This document shows positions 859 to 32,830 of a stretch of DNA of 41,736 nt, one piece after another (the stretch's first letter is position 1; the number at the start of each line of letters is the position of its first letter). The notes below the pieces were generated by a model. It made no database searches, was not told the origin of the DNA, and worked only from the letters and a program-made list of their open reading frames with translations. A program made the translations under genes and the position numbers. Source of the DNA: a virus (Duplodnaviria > Heunggongvirae > Uroviricota > Caudoviricetes); the IMG/VR virus record IMGVR_UViG_2529292910_000010, positions 1 to 41,736 of that record; one strand, 5' to 3'.

Positions 859-1467
859 TCAGCCAGCAGGCCATCCGACAGCATAACTGCGGATCGCCTT
901 CAGGTCTGTCAGCGCCTCAACCTCGGCTTTCATCTGCAACTGCCGTGTATTAATCTCCACTCCCTTCGCAAACATCGCCTGCTCTGTCGCATCTGCCAGC
1001 GCAATTATCTCCGCCGCCGTCACCGGCACCACATTATTATCCCCGTCGGTCCAGGCAAAACCTTCCGGAAGACGGTTATTCTCTGCCATCAGGCGTGTCG
1101 TGCTTATCCTGGACAACGTCTTCTTGCCGTAATCCCAGTTCCTTCCGTTGAATTCCATCACGTATTCCATATTCTCCTGCACATCACGCCAGATATTAAT
1201 CTCTTCCCGTTTCGCCGCCTTTGCCGCTTCCAGTACTGCTTCCGTGGCAACAAAGGCACTCACGCTTCCGTACGTTCCTGCTGTCAGCCCAGACCACAAT
1301 GCTTTTCCGTGTTCTGTATTATCCGTTTCCGTTGCAGTATACGGCAGCCATACCTGTTCCCCTTTTTCATTCACCGCGTCTTCAAACTGCACCTCACAGT
1401 TTATCCCGCCATATTCGTTGCTGGCTGCATTTCGTACTGCAAGAATCTCTTTTCCCTTATCCACCAT
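859..1467 (-). CDS. hypothetical protein downstream of side-tail-fibre remnant (possible tail fibre assembly/chaperone)
   Basis: ORF track 859..1554; start trimmed to the in-frame Met just after the stf-frame stop at 1476; function assigned by position only. Confidence 0.35.
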   Translation of the reverse strand: MVDKGKEILAVRNAASNEYGGINCEVQFEDAVNEKGEQVWLPYTATETDNTEHGKALWSGLTAGTYGSVSAFVATEAVLEAAKAAKREEINIWRDVQENMEYVMEFNGRNWDYGKKTLSRISTTRLMAENNRLPEGFAWTDGDNNVVPVTAAEIIALADATEQAMFAKGVEINTRQLQMKAEVEALTDLKAIRSYAVGWPAG

Positions 1468-1475
1468 GACCTCCT

Positions 1476-2550
<1,075 letters not shown>

Positions 2551-2656
2551 ACAGCCTTCCCCTGAATAAATTAACCGCCACTTGCCATTCCGTACAGAAG
2601 TCGGATATCCTTCGCCCGAAAAGCATGAAACACATTTCTGCCATGCTAAAGAGAAA

Positions 2657-2689
2657 CCCCGGTATCAGCAGATACCGGGGTTTTCTTTC
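2657..2689. terminator. bidirectional intrinsic terminator between I and J
   Basis: perfect 10-bp stem ccccggtatc/gataccgggg with 4-nt loop, T-run ttttctttc on plus strand and T-rich flank on minus. Confidence 0.7.
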
Positions 2690-2754
2690 ATGCCCACCGA
2701 TAATCCTGTTGGTTAAAACCGGTAATGGCATAAAAATTCTGAATATCTTCACAT

Positions 2755-2783
2755 TTTCACAAACTGACCGTGGCGCGTATAAT
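2755..2783 (+). promoter_or_regulatory. putative sigma70 promoter, antisense to the tail genes
   Basis: -10 TATAAT at 2778-2783; -35 TTCACA at 2756-2761 (16-bp spacer) or TTTCAC (17 bp); AT-rich upstream. Confidence 0.45.
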
Positions 2784-2789
2784 TTCTCT

Positions 2790-2892
2790 GCGTTAATTTT
2801 TTTGTCGTGATATAAGAATAATTCCTTACACTTAATCTTCGTAACTCTCCCGCAGTTCCTGTCCGCGATCACTGCGGGATTTTTTTATTCTT
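2790..2892 (+). ncRNA. candidate small RNA (~100 nt) running from the putative promoter to a terminator
   Basis: no ATG-initiated ORF between promoter and the hairpin cccgcagt-N14-actgcggg followed by T7 at 2849-2892. Confidence 0.3.
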
Positions 2893-2893
2893 T

Positions 2894-3574
2894 TTACCCC
2901 TGCCGCCCGATAACCACGACCTTTCCGCCCCCGCCTTCATCACGGGTGCTGATGTCCTGGGATATACGGCGGGAGCCAACCAGCATTTCCCCGTAAGGCA
3001 CCGGCATCGGGTTCCCCTGGGCAATCATGTTATCCAGCGAGGAAAAGTACGTGTTCTGTCTGCCGTTATCCGTTGCGCGGTAATCCGGTGTTTTTGCCTT
3101 CGGGGCCAGCATCTGGGCCACACCGCCCAGTATCATGCTGGCACCCAGTGAAAACAGCATCGTGGTGGCAGAAAAACCACCGGCACTCAGGGCTGTACCC
3201 CATAACGCCATCGAGCCTCCGGCCGTGAAGAAAGAGCCCACGATGGCTGCCGCCCCCAGCACAATCTGCAGTCCACCCTTTCCGGCCCCGGCCAGTCGCG
3301 GCACAATGTGGATGACCGTTCCCTCACCCAGCTGTTCGTGAAGACGGGCATACACCGCCTCCGGTGCCGTGTCATCACCGGCAATACGTATCTGGTACCA
3401 GCCTTCGTTCATCTGACGGCGAAAGCCCGGCATCTGCATCGACAGGGCGCGAATGGCTTCCGCTGCCGTGTTCACATACAGGCTGAGGCGGCGGCCAAAT
3501 CGTTGCAAATCCCCGTGAAGGCAGATGCGTGCCAGTGGCGGTGACGCCAGACAGAATGCGTTCGTCGTTGCCAT
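2894..3574 (-). CDS. I: tail assembly protein I
   Basis: 226 aa; ...RICLHGDLQRFGRR...IVLGAAAI.GSFFTAG... matches lambda gpI as recalled. Confidence 0.9.
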   Translation of the reverse strand: MATTNAFCLASPPLARICLHGDLQRFGRRLSLYVNTAAEAIRALSMQMPGFRRQMNEGWYQIRIAGDDTAPEAVYARLHEQLGEGTVIHIVPRLAGAGKGGLQIVLGAAAIVGSFFTAGGSMALWGTALSAGGFSATTMLFSLGASMILGGVAQMLAPKAKTPDYRATDNGRQNTYFSSLDNMIAQGNPMPVPYGEMLVGSRRISQDISTRDEGGGGKVVVIGRQG

Positions 3575-20832: not shown

Positions 20833-20967
20833 AGTTTCTTACCGTTATGGTTGACAATGAGAACTGTTTTCATTTAAAAAACCGATATACGAAAGCATCT
20901 TTTCTTTACATTCTCCATTGGGATTACCTCCGCCAGCTTCCGTTCCTGCCGCTGGCGGCTTTTTTTA

Positions 20968-22929
20968 TCATGCCGCGGCATCCGCGTTGTTCACTTCCAC
21001 CTTCACACTGTCAATCAGCAGCGTATATGTCGCCGCCTTTGATATGCCTGTCAGTTGCAGTTTGTCCGCCGCCCCTGATGCCGGAGATTTCACCAGTGTG
21101 AACGGCGTCCCCCGTTTCTCATCCAGTACCGGCGTCACCTGAATGCTGTTGTTTCCGGCAAACTCAAAAGCCAGTGTGTGCCATCCGTTATCAAAGACCC
21201 CGAACGTATCCAGCTTCGCATTCGGCTTCTTGTGGTACATCGCGTTCAGGTTCGTCGCATCCGTCTGCAGGAAGAAGGACATCAGCATGTCGTTGCCTTC
21301 CTCTGCCAGCGTCACTCCCTCCGGCAGGGACGACAACTGCCAGTAAATGCCCAGGGCAAACCGATTCGGCACCAGTGAACCCGGCAACTTAAACCGTACG
21401 CTCACACGTCCCCCCTTCTTCAGTAACTCCACTCCCTGTCCGGCTGCATCATGCTCCAGAAACCAGATGTGGTTTTCCGGTTTATTCAGTTGCAGGGCCT
21501 TACCTCCCGTAGCCCCCGCATCACTGACCACCGCTTCAGCAATGTTTTTGTTAACATTGTCTCCGCTCGCCGGTTTGTGATAATAGCGCCAGCCCTGTGA
21601 TGCCAGGTCTTCGCCGGACGCCAGCAGACTCATCAGGGTTCGGTTACTGACCGGGGCTTCCGGCTCTCTCTCCGTACCTTCACCGGAAGGTCCGGTGGGC
21701 TTCACCGTATCAGGCTGTTTTCCGGTAATGAATTCAGCGGTTCTCCCGGCATGCACAAGAATCGCCGTTGCCAGACGGTCGGAAATAATCCCACGACGTG
21801 CCCATGATCCAAAATGCGTTTTACGGTCGGCCGTCGTCCAGGTTTTGGCGTCCGTTCGACCACCGGCTCCGTAATACCCAATATCCGCAACATCCGGATC
21901 TTCTGACGGCTCGTTGGTACCCACATTTCGCCCGTTTTCATCCGTCATAAACGGCACAAAGAAGATTTTTTTTGCGGATTTCGTCTTGTATGCACCATAC
22001 ACCGCATCGTATTGCGAAGAATAAGTCTGCTTCCAGTAGTAGGTCGTGTCGCCACAAATCCAGGGAACCGATGACGGAGAGCCCCCGAGACACTGACCTC
22101 CGGATTCCGACAGGTCAGAACGATATTTTTCCACCATGGAATCAAACAGCCCCGGCTGAGTGGCGTATGCACCCTGTTTCAAATCAAACTCGCCCTGCAT
22201 CCAGACCACTGCAAGCAGAATATTTTTAGGGTTAGCCTTCAGTGCGGCCTGAGTACGGGTAAGCAGGTCCTTGTACAGTGGCTTATCTACACCCCAGCGT
22301 GCCGAGGTCTCGCTTGCGCCGGTGGATTCGCTGAAGGTACCTTCATCGCCCGCCAAAAATGCAGAACCACCACGGCAGCACGGAACCAGAAGAATACCGG
22401 CATTCGCCGGAATAAACGGCAACAATTTCTTCGCGATATGTAATCCCTGCCCCACGCATCCATACTGAGCTGCGCTAGCTTTCGGGTGTGAAAACTTACT
22501 CAAATCCTGAACATCATGCAGGCAGTGGTCCGCAGGAATAATGTCATTGTAGTTACAGGACGCACCACCCGGCGTGACAGTGCTGCGACGCGCCAGCTGT
22601 TTAATACGCGGGTCCGGACGGTCATATGTCTCCGGCAGCGGAAGCCCTTCACCATACGCCATACCGTTTGACTGCCCGGCCAGGGCAACAACAAAGTAAT
22701 ACTCCGGGTTGCTGGTGGTGCTGATAACTGCGCCTTCTCCATCCGACGGCTTCACCACCACAGGTGTGGTGACATCACCTTCCGCCGCAATGGCCTGCAT
22801 CAGGGTATAAGGCGTGATGGCCACCGGACTGCCAAATGGCTGCCACCCCTCCTTCAGTTTTTGTGTCAGTCGCTCCGCAAGGTCTGACGGCGACGCCGCC
22901 CTGACCACGTCATAGTGTTTAAATGCCAT
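20968..22929 (-). CDS. nanS: prophage 9-O-acetylneuraminic acid esterase NanS-p-like (DUF1737 N-terminus plus SGNH/SASA esterase plus C-terminal domain)
   Basis: 653 aa beginning MAFKHYDVVRAASPSDLAERLTQKLKEGWQPFGSPV; size, N-terminus and position (between tRNA genes and holin) match the Stx-phage NanS-p/YjhS-like gene as recalled. Confidence 0.8.
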   Translation of the reverse strand: MAFKHYDVVRAASPSDLAERLTQKLKEGWQPFGSPVAITPYTLMQAIAAEGDVTTPVVVKPSDGEGAVISTTSNPEYYFVVALAGQSNGMAYGEGLPLPETYDRPDPRIKQLARRSTVTPGGASCNYNDIIPADHCLHDVQDLSKFSHPKASAAQYGCVGQGLHIAKKLLPFIPANAGILLVPCCRGGSAFLAGDEGTFSESTGASETSARWGVDKPLYKDLLTRTQAALKANPKNILLAVVWMQGEFDLKQGAYATQPGLFDSMVEKYRSDLSESGGQCLGGSPSSVPWICGDTTYYWKQTYSSQYDAVYGAYKTKSAKKIFFVPFMTDENGRNVGTNEPSEDPDVADIGYYGAGGRTDAKTWTTADRKTHFGSWARRGIISDRLATAILVHAGRTAEFITGKQPDTVKPTGPSGEGTEREPEAPVSNRTLMSLLASGEDLASQGWRYYHKPASGDNVNKNIAEAVVSDAGATGGKALQLNKPENHIWFLEHDAAGQGVELLKKGGRVSVRFKLPGSLVPNRFALGIYWQLSSLPEGVTLAEEGNDMLMSFFLQTDATNLNAMYHKKPNAKLDTFGVFDNGWHTLAFEFAGNNSIQVTPVLDEKRGTPFTLVKSPASGAADKLQLTGISKAATYTLLIDSVKVEVNNADAAA

Positions 22930-23378
22930 GAATCCTCCCGGCCTGGATAATATTGTGAGTAAAATGAGGAGCGGGCTGAAGTCCGGAAGTTACAGGACAA
23001 TGGCAGAAGATAGACAACAGCCCGCAATACGAAAAAGGCCGCGCTATTGCGCAGAGTGATTACTGTCGGATATTATTCGCCAGCTGAAATATTACTTCAC
23101 GTTTTGTTGTTTATTCCTTGCCGCCCGCGTCTCCCTGCGCGGGCTTTTTTTGTCCATAAGAAAGCCCCTCCGGAGAGGGGCTGGAGAGTGGCACTATGTG
23201 CCATTGCATGGTGCCGGGTGCCTCCCGGTGAATTCAGTACCAGCACCTGAATCCGCGATTATCCCATATACCTACTCGCTGATTGCCCCTCCGCACAGGG
23301 GGATTCACCATGCCAGTTTCTTTTAACAAACTCCCCGCAAACCAGACAACAGTCAACCGCCTGAATTGTGAGACATTT

Positions 23379-23417: not shown

Positions 23418-23494
23418 TGGCGCGTTCTACTGTATTCGAACCAGTGACCGATTGCTTAGAAGGCAATTGCTCTGTCCGGCTGAGCTAACAACGC
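23418..23494 (-). tRNA. tRNA-Arg (anticodon UCU)
   Basis: reverse complement GCGTTGTTAGCTCAGCCGGACAGAGCAATTGCCTTCTAAGCAATCGGTCACTGGTTCGAATCCAGTAGAACGCGCCA; cloverleaf with anticodon loop CTTCTAA, T-loop TTCGAAT, encoded CCA. Confidence 0.85.
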
Positions 23495-23508
23495 AGGATA
23501 CAGATAAT

Positions 23509-31688: not shown

Positions 31689-32830
31689 TTGCGCCCCCTT
31701 ACCTCTGAAGGGTTCAGCGACAAATTTATGAGACTGGCCAGTAGCGCCGCGTCGTTGATGCGGTCATACAGACTTACAGCCAGCGGGGATTCGGCTTTTG
31801 CCAACATGGGATAAAGCTGCTGCAGCCAGACCTGATGAATTGATGAAATGTAGGAATAGAGAACGCTGGCGTTATGTGCAACGTCGCTCAGTACAGAGGG
31901 ATTTGAAAGCTGTTTCTCCATCTGGTTAAAGGCATTGATGTATGCCTCTTTGAACCGGGCAGCACGTTTCCCCGTGAAGCCCATGGCAAGAAACGCAAAA
32001 CCGTCGCGGGTGATTTGGTAACAAGGGAGTTTGCGGCCTGTGCAATCGGTGTAATCACTGGGCTGAAAATTCAGCTCAGTGAATTCAACAGAGCACTCAA
32101 GCGTCTGGATTTTTTGAATAACGTTTTTGTGCTGCTTGCAGAAATATTCGGCAACGGCCAAAGAAGAGGTAACAGCCTTCCCATGGATAACATCAATTTT
32201 AGGGTGAGTTTGGGTAGGGGTGGTTGCCATAGTGACATCCTCATGTGCGAATTTTGAAAACTCACCACATGGGACGCCAATCACAGAGGTGGTGAGACGT
32301 ACAGGGTTGGCGTAACCGGTCGCACATGACCCCGGCGCATCTTTCGATGCCCCTGCACGCCCCACCATAATTTGGATGTGAGGAAACGTGCGCAAAAAAA
32401 CCGCTGAAGCGCGGTTATGCGCATGTGCGAATTTCAGGACGCCAATCCCGGCACCCGCTTTATAAGGTGCCTGAACAGTGTAACGTCCCGGAATTGCAGA
32501 ATCAATATGCTGGTGGTCCTTCACACTCAACAAAATCACGCCTGAATTTCCACAAAGGACTAAAGCACTCATGCGGGTAGTCTTTGCGAAGATAGATAAC
32601 GCGCTGTGTTTCTGGCTCCCAACGAATAACATGGACATAAAGCCCTCTTCCGTCACGAAACCAGCGGTTAAGTTCCTGCACAACTCGCCCCCCACAGTCA
32701 GGTAAAGTTCTCTGTGGTTACTTACAGCCAGGTGATTTGGTAATCTGCATTCATGCCGTAACAACAGGTGTTCAGCGACGCTGACCACCAGCTGTTGCGA
32801 CAAACGGTTATTTGCCGTTAAACTATTCAT
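31685..32830 (-). CDS. Rha-family phage regulatory protein with an unusual ~200-aa N-terminal extension
   Basis: residues ~201-300 (MATTPTQTHPKIDVIHGKAVTSSLAVAEYFCKQHKNVIQKI...YQITRDGFAFLAMGFTGKRAARFKEAYINAFNQMEKQL) look like the Rha domain; frame is open for 200 more codons upstream and the ATG at 32830 overlaps the upstream stop (ATGA). Confidence 0.6.
   Translation of the reverse strand: MNSLTANNRLSQQLVVSVAEHLLLRHECRLPNHLAVSNHRELYLTVGGELCRNLTAGFVTEEGFMSMLFVGSQKHSALSIFAKTTRMSALVLCGNSGVILLSVKDHQHIDSAIPGRYTVQAPYKAGAGIGVLKFAHAHNRASAVFLRTFPHIQIMVGRAGASKDAPGSCATGYANPVRLTTSVIGVPCGEFSKFAHEDVTMATTPTQTHPKIDVIHGKAVTSSLAVAEYFCKQHKNVIQKIQTLECSVEFTELNFQPSDYTDCTGRKLPCYQITRDGFAFLAMGFTGKRAARFKEAYINAFNQMEKQLSNPSVLSDVAHNASVLYSYISSIHQVWLQQLYPMLAKAESPLAVSLYDRINDAALLASLINLSLNPSEVRGRK

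What the first reader, a model, noticed from the sequence alone, without database searches (positions are those of the whole stretch)
2551..2893. Small promoter-plus-terminator island between tail genes I and J, a candidate prophage sRNA locus
In lambda, I and J are nearly contiguous; here ~340 bp intervene. The interval contains a perfect 10-bp-stem bidirectional terminator (2657-2689), a near-consensus sigma70 promoter on the plus strand (TTCACA, 16 bp, TATAAT at 2756-2783) and a second plus-strand terminator (2849-2892), with no plausible ORF between promoter and terminator. That predicts a ~100-nt antisense-oriented RNA, and possibly a second RNA from the I 3' UTR ending at the first terminator. 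Prophage late regions of pathogenic E. coli are known to encode regulatory sRNAs; whether this corresponds to a described one I cannot tell from memory.
Basis: partly seen in the sequence, partly recalled or inferred. Interest (0 to 1): 0.6.

Follow-up and report, generated by a model that had tools for sequence, protein, structure and literature searches.

The report
Prophage small-RNA gene, PasB family
The 343-bp gap between two phage tail genes holds a self-contained small regulatory RNA gene that belongs to a known, experimentally detected prophage sRNA family (PasB in EPEC, EcOnc22-24 in EHEC), here as a common sequence variant that the published surveys appear to have missed.

Summary
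Window 2551-2893 is the gap between tail genes J (start 2550, minus) and I (stop 2894, minus). It is 343 bp, against 60 bp in lambda. It holds an 11/12-match sigma70 promoter (2756-2783), a Rho-independent terminator (stem 2849-2855/2872-2878, U7 2880-2886) and an upstream 10-bp hairpin (2657-2680).

The predicted 97-nt plus-strand RNA (2790-2886) is a member of the PasB sRNA family. PasB was found in EPEC E2348/69 (83 nt, Northern-verified, Hfq-dependent, RIL-seq targets). By my coordinate mapping, the EHEC Sakai sRNAs EcOnc22/23/24 (~85 nt, Hfq-bound) lie at the same I-J position.

A covariance model built only from those other alleles hits 2790-2886 at 59 bits (E 2e-12).

Promoter, 5' leader and terminator are conserved. 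The 45-50-nt body that carries the probable seed is only 60% identical to PasB, while four-fold sites of the flanking genes are 91-92% identical. The alleles and the upstream modules occur in all four combinations.

The window allele occurs in 800 of 5,426 complete E. coli genomes. The word-size-28 BLAST used in the 2026 PasB survey does not find it.

Verdict: real, a known kind, an uncatalogued allele, function still unknown.

The parts
1901..2550 (-). 5' part of tail-tip gene J (first ~216 codons); downstream flank of the cassette in late-operon direction
   Evidence: ORF list. 99% match to the annotated gpJ of L001. 96.9% identity to E2348/69 J.
2551..2736 (.). Upstream module 'U1' (186 nt): J ribosome-binding region plus spacer plus hairpin. 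It is interchangeable with an unrelated 83-84-nt module 'U2' in other prophages.
   Evidence: U1 is in 60+ of the IMG/VR loci. U2 is in E2348/69, Stx1a/Stx2c phages and Sakai.
2648..2689 (.). Bidirectional terminator-like hairpin: 10-bp perfect G+C-rich stem 2657-2666/2671-2680, loop AGCA, A-run 2648-2656 and T-run 2681-2689.
   Evidence: Fold dG -28.7 (plus) and -30.8 (minus) kcal/mol, z about -6. The analogous tail-sense terminators in U2 modules are flagged by the scan. One locus (L064) lacks exactly this hairpin.
2582..2611 (+). Weak promoter-like site TTGCCA-18-TATCCT (9/12); not considered functional
   Evidence: No supporting evidence.
2737..2789 (+). Conserved sRNA promoter region: -35 TTCACA 2756-2761, 16-nt spacer, -10 TATAAT 2778-2783.
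   Evidence: The identical hexamers and spacing occur upstream of PasB in E2348/69. Alignments.
2790..2886 (+). Predicted 97-nt sRNA, PasB/EcOnc22 family, 'type-1' allele. The annotated 5' end of E2348/69 PasB aligns to 2805, giving an 82-nt form.
   Evidence: CM R1 hit at 59.3 bits, E 1.7e-12, model positions 1-94 of 94. Alignments.
2814..2848 (+). Probable Hfq distal-face / seed region: AAGAAUAAU (2814-2822, ARN repeats), UCCUU (2823-2827, anti-Shine-Dalgarno-like), family-invariant AAUCUU (2834-2839), then allele-specific CGUAACUCU.
   Evidence: Invariant columns. Predicted mostly single-stranded. PasB-target complementarities map to the equivalent PasB segments. Functional assignment is inferred.
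2849..2886 (+). Rho-independent terminator: stem CCCGCAG/CTGCGGG with 16-nt loop, then A and U7. The 3' end lies 7 nt from the I stop codon.
   Evidence: The stem is invariant in 18 distinct family sequences. 22 of 23 bases (positions 2-23) of the reverse complement of the PasB Northern probe match 2861-2882; the first probe base falls in an indel next to the terminator loop.
2894..3475 (-). Tail assembly gene I (193-aa form as PGAP annotates it; the longest ORF extends to 3574); convergent with the sRNA
   Evidence: In 80 of 80 IMG/VR loci with an I protein at least 96% identical, a family RNA follows directly on the opposite strand.

Best explanation
Window 2737-2886 (plus strand) is an autonomous sRNA gene, a 'moron' without an ORF, inserted between lambdoid tail genes I and J and pointing against the late operon. 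A near-consensus sigma70 promoter should fire in the lysogen and give a 97-nt primary transcript (2790-2886). That transcript may be trimmed to about 82 nt (5' end near 2805). It ends at a Rho-independent terminator with a U7 tail. The RNA is an allele of the PasB / EcOnc22-24 family.

By analogy with those members, it is bound and stabilised by Hfq, through the 3' U-tail and probably the AAGAAUAAU ARN motif. It then acts in trans by imperfect base pairing of its single-stranded middle (UUCCUUACACUUAAUCUUCGUAACUCU) with host and horizontally acquired mRNAs.

The promoter, the 5' leader, AAUCUU and the terminator are shared scaffold. The sequences around them differ between alleles, so this allele probably has a target set different from that of PasB. 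The upstream hairpin (2657-2680) is a terminator that insulates the cassette and, on the tail-gene strand, stops non-antiterminated transcription before J.

Shown: the anatomy, the homology, the distribution and the allele shuffling. Taken from the literature for homologues only: the transcript, Hfq dependence and trans targets. Inferred: the seed, the allele-specific targets and the insulator role.
For: Anatomy:
-.

Same locus as PasB:
- PasB coordinates and probe.
- I ends at 1466255 and J starts at 1466496 in NC_011601.
- The alignment shows the promoter and terminator conserved, and the PasB ends map to window 2805 and 2886.
- E2348/69 has the same TTCACA-16-TATAAT.

Experimental support in homologues:
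- Northern blot, Hfq-dependent stability and 37 RIL-seq interactions.
- delta-hfq log2FC of -6.79 and -2.39.
- Targets bfpB, bfpI, ftsZ, galE, ler, perB and rplX.
- pasB baseMean 482-1082, against 4.8 for I and 15 for J, which indicates an autonomous promoter in the lysogen.

EHEC:
- EcOnc22/23/24 are Hfq-CRAC peaks, with a Northern band of about 85 nt that is destabilised in delta-hfq.
- All three lie in the 240-bp I-J gaps of Sp15, Sp14 and Sp11.
- After a +137 to +146 coordinate offset, calibrated on AgvB, they fall on the family RNA.

Membership:
- CM R1, built from 10 non-window-type sequences, scores 59.3 bits on 2790-2886. The next best hit in the window scores 18 bits.
- 80 of 80 related I loci carry a hit.

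Allelic structure:
- 32 distinct RNAs in IMG/VR.
- Body 31/51-52 identical to PasB, against four-fold-site identity of 0.91 and 0.92 in I and J.
- All four U-module x body combinations exist.
- Allele counts are 800, 918 and 542 of 5,426 genomes.

Seed hint:
- Perfect complementarities of 7-10 nt between PasB and its RIL-seq partners fall in CUCCUUCACA and AUCUUCAUUU.
Against: - No expression, Hfq-binding or target data exist for this allele, and I could not access raw RNA-seq.
- The 5' end is uncertain: the predicted start is 2790, while the coverage-based PasB 5' end is equivalent to 2805.
- Whole-fragment duplex energies between PasB, or the window allele, and RIL-seq partners were no better than shuffles (z from -1.8 to +1.1).
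- The short perfect complementarities are anecdotal. About 0.3 chance 8-mers are expected per target.
- The 5' hairpin has only weak covariation support, and the terminator stem never varies, so structure is not proven by covariation.
- No physiological function has been shown for any family member.
- The equation of EcOnc22-24 with this family rests on an offset calibrated 0.2-1 Mb away from the three sites.
Confidence: 0.8

Rival explanations
1. The cassette works mainly in cis. Convergent transcription from the strong promoter, and/or the perfect 97-nt duplex between the sRNA and the I-J stretch of the late polycistronic mRNA, together with the tail-sense terminator, keeps J-lom-stf silent in the lysogen. 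Alternatively it triggers processing of late mRNA, possibly of a superinfecting relative that carries the same allele. This could coexist with a trans role.
For: - The RNA is fully antisense to the late transcript, as the sequence shows directly.
- Every module type keeps a hairpin plus T-run on the tail-gene strand between the sRNA promoter and J. Compensatory T-A to C-G changes occur between U2 variants.
- Allele diversity with a conserved scaffold is what an allele-specific antisense interaction could select for.
Against: - The RNA does not overlap any coding sequence or ribosome-binding site. It ends 7 nt from the I stop and starts 240 nt from the J start.
- Q-antiterminated polymerase is expected to read through intrinsic terminators (established lambda biology).
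- RIL-seq found PasB joined to unlinked mRNAs, and no I-J intergenic partner was seen in the part of the table that is held.
Confidence: 0.15
2. The interval encodes two sRNAs. Besides the PasB-like RNA, there would be either a second plus-strand RNA of about 75 nt from the weak promoter 2582-2611 to the first hairpin, or a minus-strand I-3'UTR RNA ending at that hairpin.
For: - The hairpin has T-runs on both sides and is very stable.
- A 9/12 promoter-like site sits 46 nt upstream of the stem on the plus strand.
- 2618-2697 folds with z = -6.5.
Against: - The promoter match is poor (TATCCT as the -10).
- No minus-strand promoter-like site exists in 2000-3500.
- U1 is nearly invariant, so it gives no evolutionary signal.
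- U1 is replaced wholesale by the unrelated U2 module, and its hairpin is deleted in L064, without loss of the sRNA gene.
- Rfam matches there are far below threshold (STnc310 19 bits against a gathering score of 40).
- The tail genes are nearly silent in the E2348/69 lysogen.
Confidence: 0.08
3. The signals are chance matches, or the interval is the remnant of a decayed ORF.
For: Mechanical ORFs of 113 aa (minus) and 94 aa (plus) cross the interval. Two phage records annotate a CDS over it.
Against: - No Pfam or PHROG match for these ORFs.
- RefSeq annotates nothing there in the genomes listed.
- The left 180 bp are replaced by unrelated sequence of a different length in other prophages, so no frame is conserved.
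- The promoter and terminator are conserved while the body varies. This is the opposite of what coding decay would give.
- Homologues are transcribed as discrete sRNAs.
Confidence: 0.02

Closest known systems
PasB (pathogenicity-associated sRNA B) of EPEC O127:H6 E2348/69, prophage PP6 (Pearl Mizrahi et al. 2021, PMC8550237; Zhu, Shabalina & Storz 2026, bioRxiv 10.64898/2026.05.13.724894)
   Same: - Same I-J intergenic position and the same orientation against the tail operon.
- Same TTCACA-16-TATAAT promoter and same GCGUUA-U-run leader.
- Same CCCGCAG/CTGCGGG-A-U7 terminator and similar length.
- The shared motifs UCCUU and AUCUU(C).
   Different: - The body between the U-run and the terminator is only 60% identical, with indels. 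This includes the stretch just upstream of the terminator where Zhu et al. place the PasB seed (AUUUGUCUGUC there, GUAACUCU here).
- The terminator loop is 16 nt here and 11 nt in PasB.
- The upstream module is U1 (186 nt) here and U2 (84 nt) in E2348/69.
- blastn with word size 28 finds nothing, and word size 11 finds only the 25-nt terminator at 43% query coverage. [quoted passage not shown]
EcOnc22 / EcOnc23 / EcOnc24 of EHEC O157:H7 Sakai prophages Sp15 (Stx1), Sp14 and Sp11 (Tree et al. 2014, PMC4104026, Table S2)
   Same: - I-J intergenic position on the strand opposite to the tail genes.
- About 85 nt, Hfq-bound and Hfq-stabilised.
- Same terminator stem and U7, and the AAUCUUC core.
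   Different: - A third body allele (GAUGCCUGAAAAAUAACUCCAUAACGUUAAUCUUCAUCGUUCUCU), 68% identical to the window body.
- The -35 region is diverged, and the scan finds no promoter-like site there.
- The identification of EcOnc22-24 with this RNA is my inference from coordinates. I found no paper that states it.
AgvB / AsxR anti-sRNAs of EHEC prophages (Rfam RF02702, RF02703)
   Same: They are prophage 'moron-like' Hfq-dependent sRNAs transcribed against the late operon. They form a family with a conserved 3' part and a variable, ARN-containing 5' part that sets specificity.
   Different: - Different locus: downstream of the stx/moron site near PR', not I-J.
- Different sequence, with no Rfam hit in 2400-3050 even at E <= 10.
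- They are 51-60 nt long.
- Sponge activity against a core sRNA has not been tested for this family.
Lambdoid 'morons' (Juhala et al. 2000; for example lom and bor of lambda)
   Same: Extra DNA relative to lambda between two conserved late genes, with its own promoter and terminator, expressed from the repressed prophage.
   Different: It carries an RNA gene rather than an ORF, and it is oriented antisense to the operon.

Membership tests
PasB / EcOnc22-24 prophage sRNA family | Gene lies in the gap between lambdoid tail genes I and J, on the strand opposite to them | tested here: met
   for the window, a 100% identical genome and E2348/69. for Sakai.
PasB / EcOnc22-24 prophage sRNA family | Detectable sequence and structure homology to experimentally detected members | tested here: met
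   A covariance model built without any window-type sequence hits 2790-2886 at 59.3 bits, E 1.7e-12, over the full model length. The promoter and terminator align.
PasB / EcOnc22-24 prophage sRNA family | Own sigma70 promoter and a Rho-independent terminator with a U-tail of at least 6 | tested here: met
   11/12 promoter match and stem plus U7. The same elements are present in E2348/69.
PasB / EcOnc22-24 prophage sRNA family | Discrete transcript of about 80-100 nt whose abundance depends on Hfq | not testable with these tools
   Shown only for homologues.
PasB sensu stricto (variants catalogued by Zhu et al. 2026) | Found by blastn with the 83-nt E2348/69 PasB, word size 28, query coverage above 75%, differing from PasB by a few nucleotides | tested here: not met
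   No hit at word size 28. At word size 11, only 25 nt match at 43% coverage. The body is 60% identical.
PasB sensu stricto | Same seed and target set as PasB (ler, perB, bfpB/I, ftsZ, galE...) | tested here: inconclusive
   The PasB segments complementary to partners (CUCCUUCACA, AUCUUCAUUU) are only partly kept here (UUCCUUACAC, AUCUUCGUAA). The longest matches to ler and bfpI drop from 9-10 nt to 7 nt. Energies are not significant.
Rfam families (4,227 models, including AgvB, AsxR, STnc100, IsrK, C4) | Score at or above the gathering threshold | tested here: not met
   No gathering-level hit in 2551-2893. The best sub-threshold hits score 15-20 bits. I saw no hit to any PasB model in Rfam 15.
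cis-antisense RNAs overlapping a coding gene (lambda OOP type) | The RNA overlaps the coding sequence or ribosome-binding site of the gene on the other strand | tested here: not met
   The RNA at 2790-2886 lies wholly between the I stop (2894) and the J start (2550).
Phage moron | Insert absent from the reference phage at that junction, bounded by its own promoter and terminator | tested here: met
   The lambda gap is 60 bp and the window gap is 343 bp. Promoter and terminator.

The most novel reading that the evidence does not exclude
The I-J cassette may be a recombining 'seed-swap' locus. A fixed scaffold (promoter, leader, AAUCUU, terminator) carries at least three old, interchangeable body alleles. 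Together these sit in roughly a third or more of complete E. coli genomes. The window allele (800 genomes) would be a functionally distinct, so far uncatalogued paralogue of PasB with its own regulon. The allele diversity could be maintained by selection, either by retargeting of host mRNAs or by allele-specific antisense interference between related prophages.
Probability: 0.3. Interest if true: 0.5.

Novelty: new member of a known kind. Interest (0 to 1): 0.3.

Why it matters
The result assigns an unannotated 343-bp gap, present in about 30% of complete E. coli genomes, to a known class of Hfq-dependent prophage sRNAs. The gene is not annotated in any of the RefSeq genomes listed, and Rfam gave no match.

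It links two literatures that I did not find connected: EcOnc22-24 (EHEC, 2014) and PasB (EPEC, 2021).

It also suggests that the published picture of PasB as the least diverse Pas sRNA comes from the BLAST word size used. The locus has at least three divergent alleles of similar prevalence, shuffled by recombination and differing in the probable seed. If those alleles have different targets, closely related strains would differ in post-transcriptional regulation according to which tail-region allele their prophages carry.

The biological function of every family member remains unknown.

Tried and rejected
- Rfam, at gathering level and at E <= 10 over 2400-3050, gave nothing meaningful.
- AgvB/AsxR were my first lead from memory. 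I rejected it: they lie at a different locus (the moron site near stx) and give no Rfam hit here.
- A full-text search for the terminator, hairpin and promoter sequences found no paper.
- RNAduplex of PasB and of the window allele against six RIL-seq partner fragments gave long, loop-rich duplexes no better than shuffles (the first attempt timed out). I replaced it with a perfect-complementarity scan, which is only anecdotal.
- The genome-contig scan with the terminator 25-mer found only E. albertii and a probably contaminated Streptomyces contig. The representative-genome collection is therefore uninformative for distribution.
- Covariation analysis: the terminator stem is invariant and the 5' helix is only weakly supported, so neither is proof of structure.
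- Coding potential of the crossing ORFs: no family match.
- A search for a genome sharing the window's J'-tail-fibre junction found none.
- I did not read the non-activating-condition PasB target list. The file part is unknown and look-ups were limited.

Full report
**1. The observation**

The tail genes in this part of the window are on the minus strand. J starts at 2550, and I ends with its stop codon at 2894-2896. A complete E. coli genome with a 100% identical interval is annotated the same way: gpJ, then a 343-bp unannotated gap, then 'tail assembly protein'. In lambda the I-J gap is 60 bp.

The scan finds TTCACA-16-TATAAT at 2756-2783 on the plus strand, 11 of 12 matches. It also finds a plus-strand terminator at 2862-2878 followed by ATTTTTTTAT. 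Folding shows the longer stem CCCGCAG (2849-2855) / CTGCGGG (2872-2878), followed by A and U7 (2880-2886).

The first hairpin is a perfect 10-bp stem at 2657-2666/2671-2680. An A-run precedes it and a T-run follows it. dG is -28.7 kcal/mol on the plus strand and -30.8 on the minus strand, z is about -6, and none of 200 shuffles is as stable. The simple scan misses it, probably because the A-run and T-run pair with each other.

Between 2790 and 2886 there is no reading frame longer than two codons. The mechanical ORFs that cross the gap match no Pfam or PHROG family.

**2. What it is**

Rfam has no match here, either at gathering level or at E <= 10. The literature does have one. Pearl Mizrahi et al. 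2021 (PMC8550237) list PasB in EPEC E2348/69 prophage PP6. It runs from 1466343 to 1466261 on the minus strand of NC_011601, is 83 nt long, and lies between E2348C_1436 and E2348C_1437. In the RefSeq annotation those two genes are tail assembly protein I (ends at 1466255) and gpJ (starts at 1466496).

I aligned the two gaps.
- The region from 2730 to about 2805 is nearly identical. It holds the same -35 and -10 hexamers with the same spacing and the leader GCGUUA-U-run.
- The terminator is also nearly identical. The exact run TCCGCGATCACTGCGGGATTTTTTT covers positions 5-23 of the reverse complement of the PasB Northern probe, up to the probe's end.
- The PasB 5' and 3' ends map to window 2805 and 2886.

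PasB was verified by Northern blot and ranked 15th by number of RIL-seq interactions (37). In delta-hfq it drops by log2 6.8 (activating condition) and 2.4 (non-activating condition). Its read count (baseMean 482-1082) is far above that of the flanking I (4.8) and J (15) genes. This fits a promoter of its own that is active in the lysogen.

**3. A second, older record**

Table S2 of Tree et al. 2014 (PMC4104026) lists three homologous Hfq-CRAC peaks in EHEC Sakai: EcOnc22 (Sp15), EcOnc23 (Sp14) and EcOnc24 (Sp11). EcOnc22 is about 85 nt on a Northern blot and is destabilised in delta-hfq.

In NC_002695.2 all three coordinates fall inside the 240-bp I-J gaps of those prophages, on the strand opposite to the tail genes. 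The paper used an older genome version, so I calibrated the offset with AgvB1. The paper gives 1941783-1941835, and the Rfam hit in version 2 is at 1941920-1941981. That is an offset of +137 to +146.

With that offset the three peaks fall on the body and terminator of the family RNA. Its predicted length in Sakai is 91 nt. I found no paper that equates EcOnc22-24 with PasB, so this equation is my inference.

**4. Membership test**

I built a covariance model from ten sequences of the PasB type and the EcOnc22 type, leaving out every window-type sequence. I then scanned the whole window with filters off. Window 2790-2886 (plus) scores 59.3 bits, E 1.7e-12, over model positions 1-94. The next best hit scores 18 bits.

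Among 80 IMG/VR loci chosen only because they encode an I protein at least 96% identical to the window's, all 80 have a model hit directly after I on the opposite strand.

**5. How this copy differs**

A scan of IMG/VR with the promoter 25-mer gave 119 loci and 32 distinct RNAs.
- Invariant or nearly invariant parts are the leader, an A-rich ARN-like stretch, UCCUU (in most sequences), AAUCUU, and the terminator stem and U-tail.
- The sequences between these parts, and the terminator loop (4-16 nt), vary.

The window RNA is the commonest variant in that sample (38 loci). Against PasB, the body between the U-run and the terminator is 31/51-52 identical, about 60%. Four-fold degenerate sites of the flanking genes are far more similar: 0.911 in I and 0.924 in the 5' part of J. 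The body has therefore been exchanged rather than drifted in place.

The stretch between J and the promoter also comes in two unrelated forms. U1 is 186 nt with the perfect hairpin, as in the window. U2 is 83-84 nt with a different hairpin. All four combinations exist:

| Source | Upstream module | Body allele |
|---|---|---|
| Window | U1 | type 1 |
| PPompW phage | U1 | type 2 (PasB-2) |
| Stx2c/Stx1a phages | U2 | type 1-like |
| E2348/69 | U2 | type 2 |

Counts of each body type among the 5,426 complete E. coli genomes:

| Body type | Genomes |
|---|---|
| Type 1 (window) | 800 |
| Type 2 (PasB) | 918 |
| Type 3 (EcOnc22) | 542 |

The 2026 survey by Zhu, Shabalina and Storz searched bacterial genomes with word size 28 and required more than 75% query coverage. 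It reports that PasB variants differ by only a few nucleotides, and that PasB is the least diverse Pas sRNA. Its PasB-2 is the C27A variant that I also see. With those settings PasB does not hit this window at all. The window allele therefore lies outside their catalogue.

**6. How it probably works**

Literature evidence on homologues shows Hfq-dependent abundance. It also shows chimeras with unlinked mRNAs (bfpB, bfpI, ftsZ, galE, ler, perB and rplX in the activating condition).

The following is inferred for this copy.
- Transcription starts near G2790, 7 nt after the -10 hexamer.
- Hfq binds the U7 tail, and probably also AAGAAUAAU (2814-2822).
- Pairing uses the single-stranded middle of the RNA.

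Perfect complementarities between PasB and its partners fall in two segments. In CUCCUUCACA they are 9 nt for ler, 7 nt for perB and 7 nt for bfpI. In AUCUUCAUUU they are 10 nt for bfpI and 8 nt, twice, for ler. The second segment is where Zhu et al. place the seed. In the window these segments read UUCCUUACAC and AUCUUCGUAA, and the matches shrink to 7 nt.

This evidence is weak. Chance 8-mers are expected at about 0.3 per target, and whole-fragment duplex energies are not better than shuffles. I commit to trans-acting, Hfq-dependent base pairing with an allele-specific target set as the most likely mechanism. Its physiological role is unknown for the whole family.

**7. The first hairpin**

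E2348/69 and Sakai have a different hairpin at the equivalent place. The scan calls it a terminator on the tail-gene strand. Variants of that hairpin keep the stem through a T-A to C-G double change. A tail-sense terminator between the sRNA promoter and J is therefore a conserved part of the cassette.

In the window's U1 module the hairpin is also terminator-like on the sRNA strand. I read it as an insulator. It stops non-antiterminated transcription before J, and in U1 it also shields the sRNA promoter from read-in.

The only candidate promoter is a 9/12 match with TATCCT as its -10. No minus-strand promoter-like site was found. The module is dispensable in other prophages.

**8. Rivals**

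- A mainly cis role, through convergent transcription or an antisense duplex with late mRNA, cannot be excluded and could coexist with the trans role. However, the RNA overlaps no coding sequence or ribosome-binding site.
- Chance, or a decayed ORF, is effectively excluded by the conservation pattern and by the transcribed homologues.

**9. Verdict**

The kind is known: PasB from 2021, and probably EcOnc22-24 from 2014. This copy is a common allele that is not catalogued, not annotated in any of the RefSeq genomes listed, and unmatched in Rfam. I rate it a new member of a known kind, with modest interest. The value lies in the annotation, in linking two literatures, and in showing that the locus is much more polymorphic than reported.

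Noticed in passing
window 896-2550: The J gene is truncated. Window 1901-8893 matches L001 5353-12343, and window 896-1917 matches L001 1-1022 (tail-fibre / DUF4376 genes). About 4.3 kb is therefore missing: most of J, lom and the 5' part of the tail-fibre gene. J codon ~216 is fused to tail-fibre sequence, so the prophage is probably tail-defective while keeping the sRNA cassette. No complete E. coli genome shares the junction.
   Followed up: partly
window 23152-23342 (-): Rfam STnc100 hit at 140 bits. STnc100 is a relative of PasD according to Zhu et al. 2026. It lies next to three tRNA genes at 23418-23667 (Arg-UCU, Arg-UCG, Met-CAU).
   Followed up: no
window ~23090-23157 (+): Convergent with STnc100 lies CACGTTTTGTTGTTTATTCCTTGCCGCCCGCGTCTCCCTGCGCGGGC-T7. 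It closely matches the RIL-seq sRNA candidate E2348C_1409.E2348C_1408.IGR of E2348/69, noted there as a homologue of EcOnc08/21/42. There is no Rfam family for it. It was picked up as the second-best hit of my model (18 bits), through its terminator.
   Followed up: partly
window 20851-20966 (+): A TTGACA promoter-like site and a strong terminator (GCCGCCAGC...GCTGGCGGC-T7) abut the 3' end of the 653-aa minus-strand ORF 20968..22929. This is the position where PasA/PasC/AgvB/AsxR-type convergent sRNAs sit in related prophages. There is no Rfam hit, so it is a candidate further sRNA.
   Followed up: no
window 32285-32470 (-): Rfam C4 antisense RNA (75 bits) and IsrK (62 bits) lie side by side in the early region of the prophage.
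   Followed up: no
L033 (IMG/VR 2534681940_000025), at the sRNA promoter: An insertion that starts a transposase-like reading frame interrupts the promoter spacer right after TTCACAAACTGA. This is a natural knock-out of the sRNA promoter.
   Followed up: no
L064 (IMG/VR 2671180417_000014), U1 module: A 47-nt deletion between TTTCT repeats removes exactly the U1 hairpin and leaves the sRNA gene intact.
   Followed up: no
L123 (NZ_JBHTEB010000006.1, 'Streptomyces flavalbus', 3.4-kb contig): This contig carries the complete E. coli-type I-J cassette (U1 plus a hybrid sRNA allele). It is most likely contamination of that assembly with enterobacterial prophage DNA.
   Followed up: no
window 2657-2689; scan_promoters_terminators tool: The consensus terminator scan does not report this very stable hairpin on either strand. 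The probable reason is that its flanking A-run and T-run are absorbed into the stem, so bidirectional terminators of this type may be systematically missed by that scan.
   Followed up: partly
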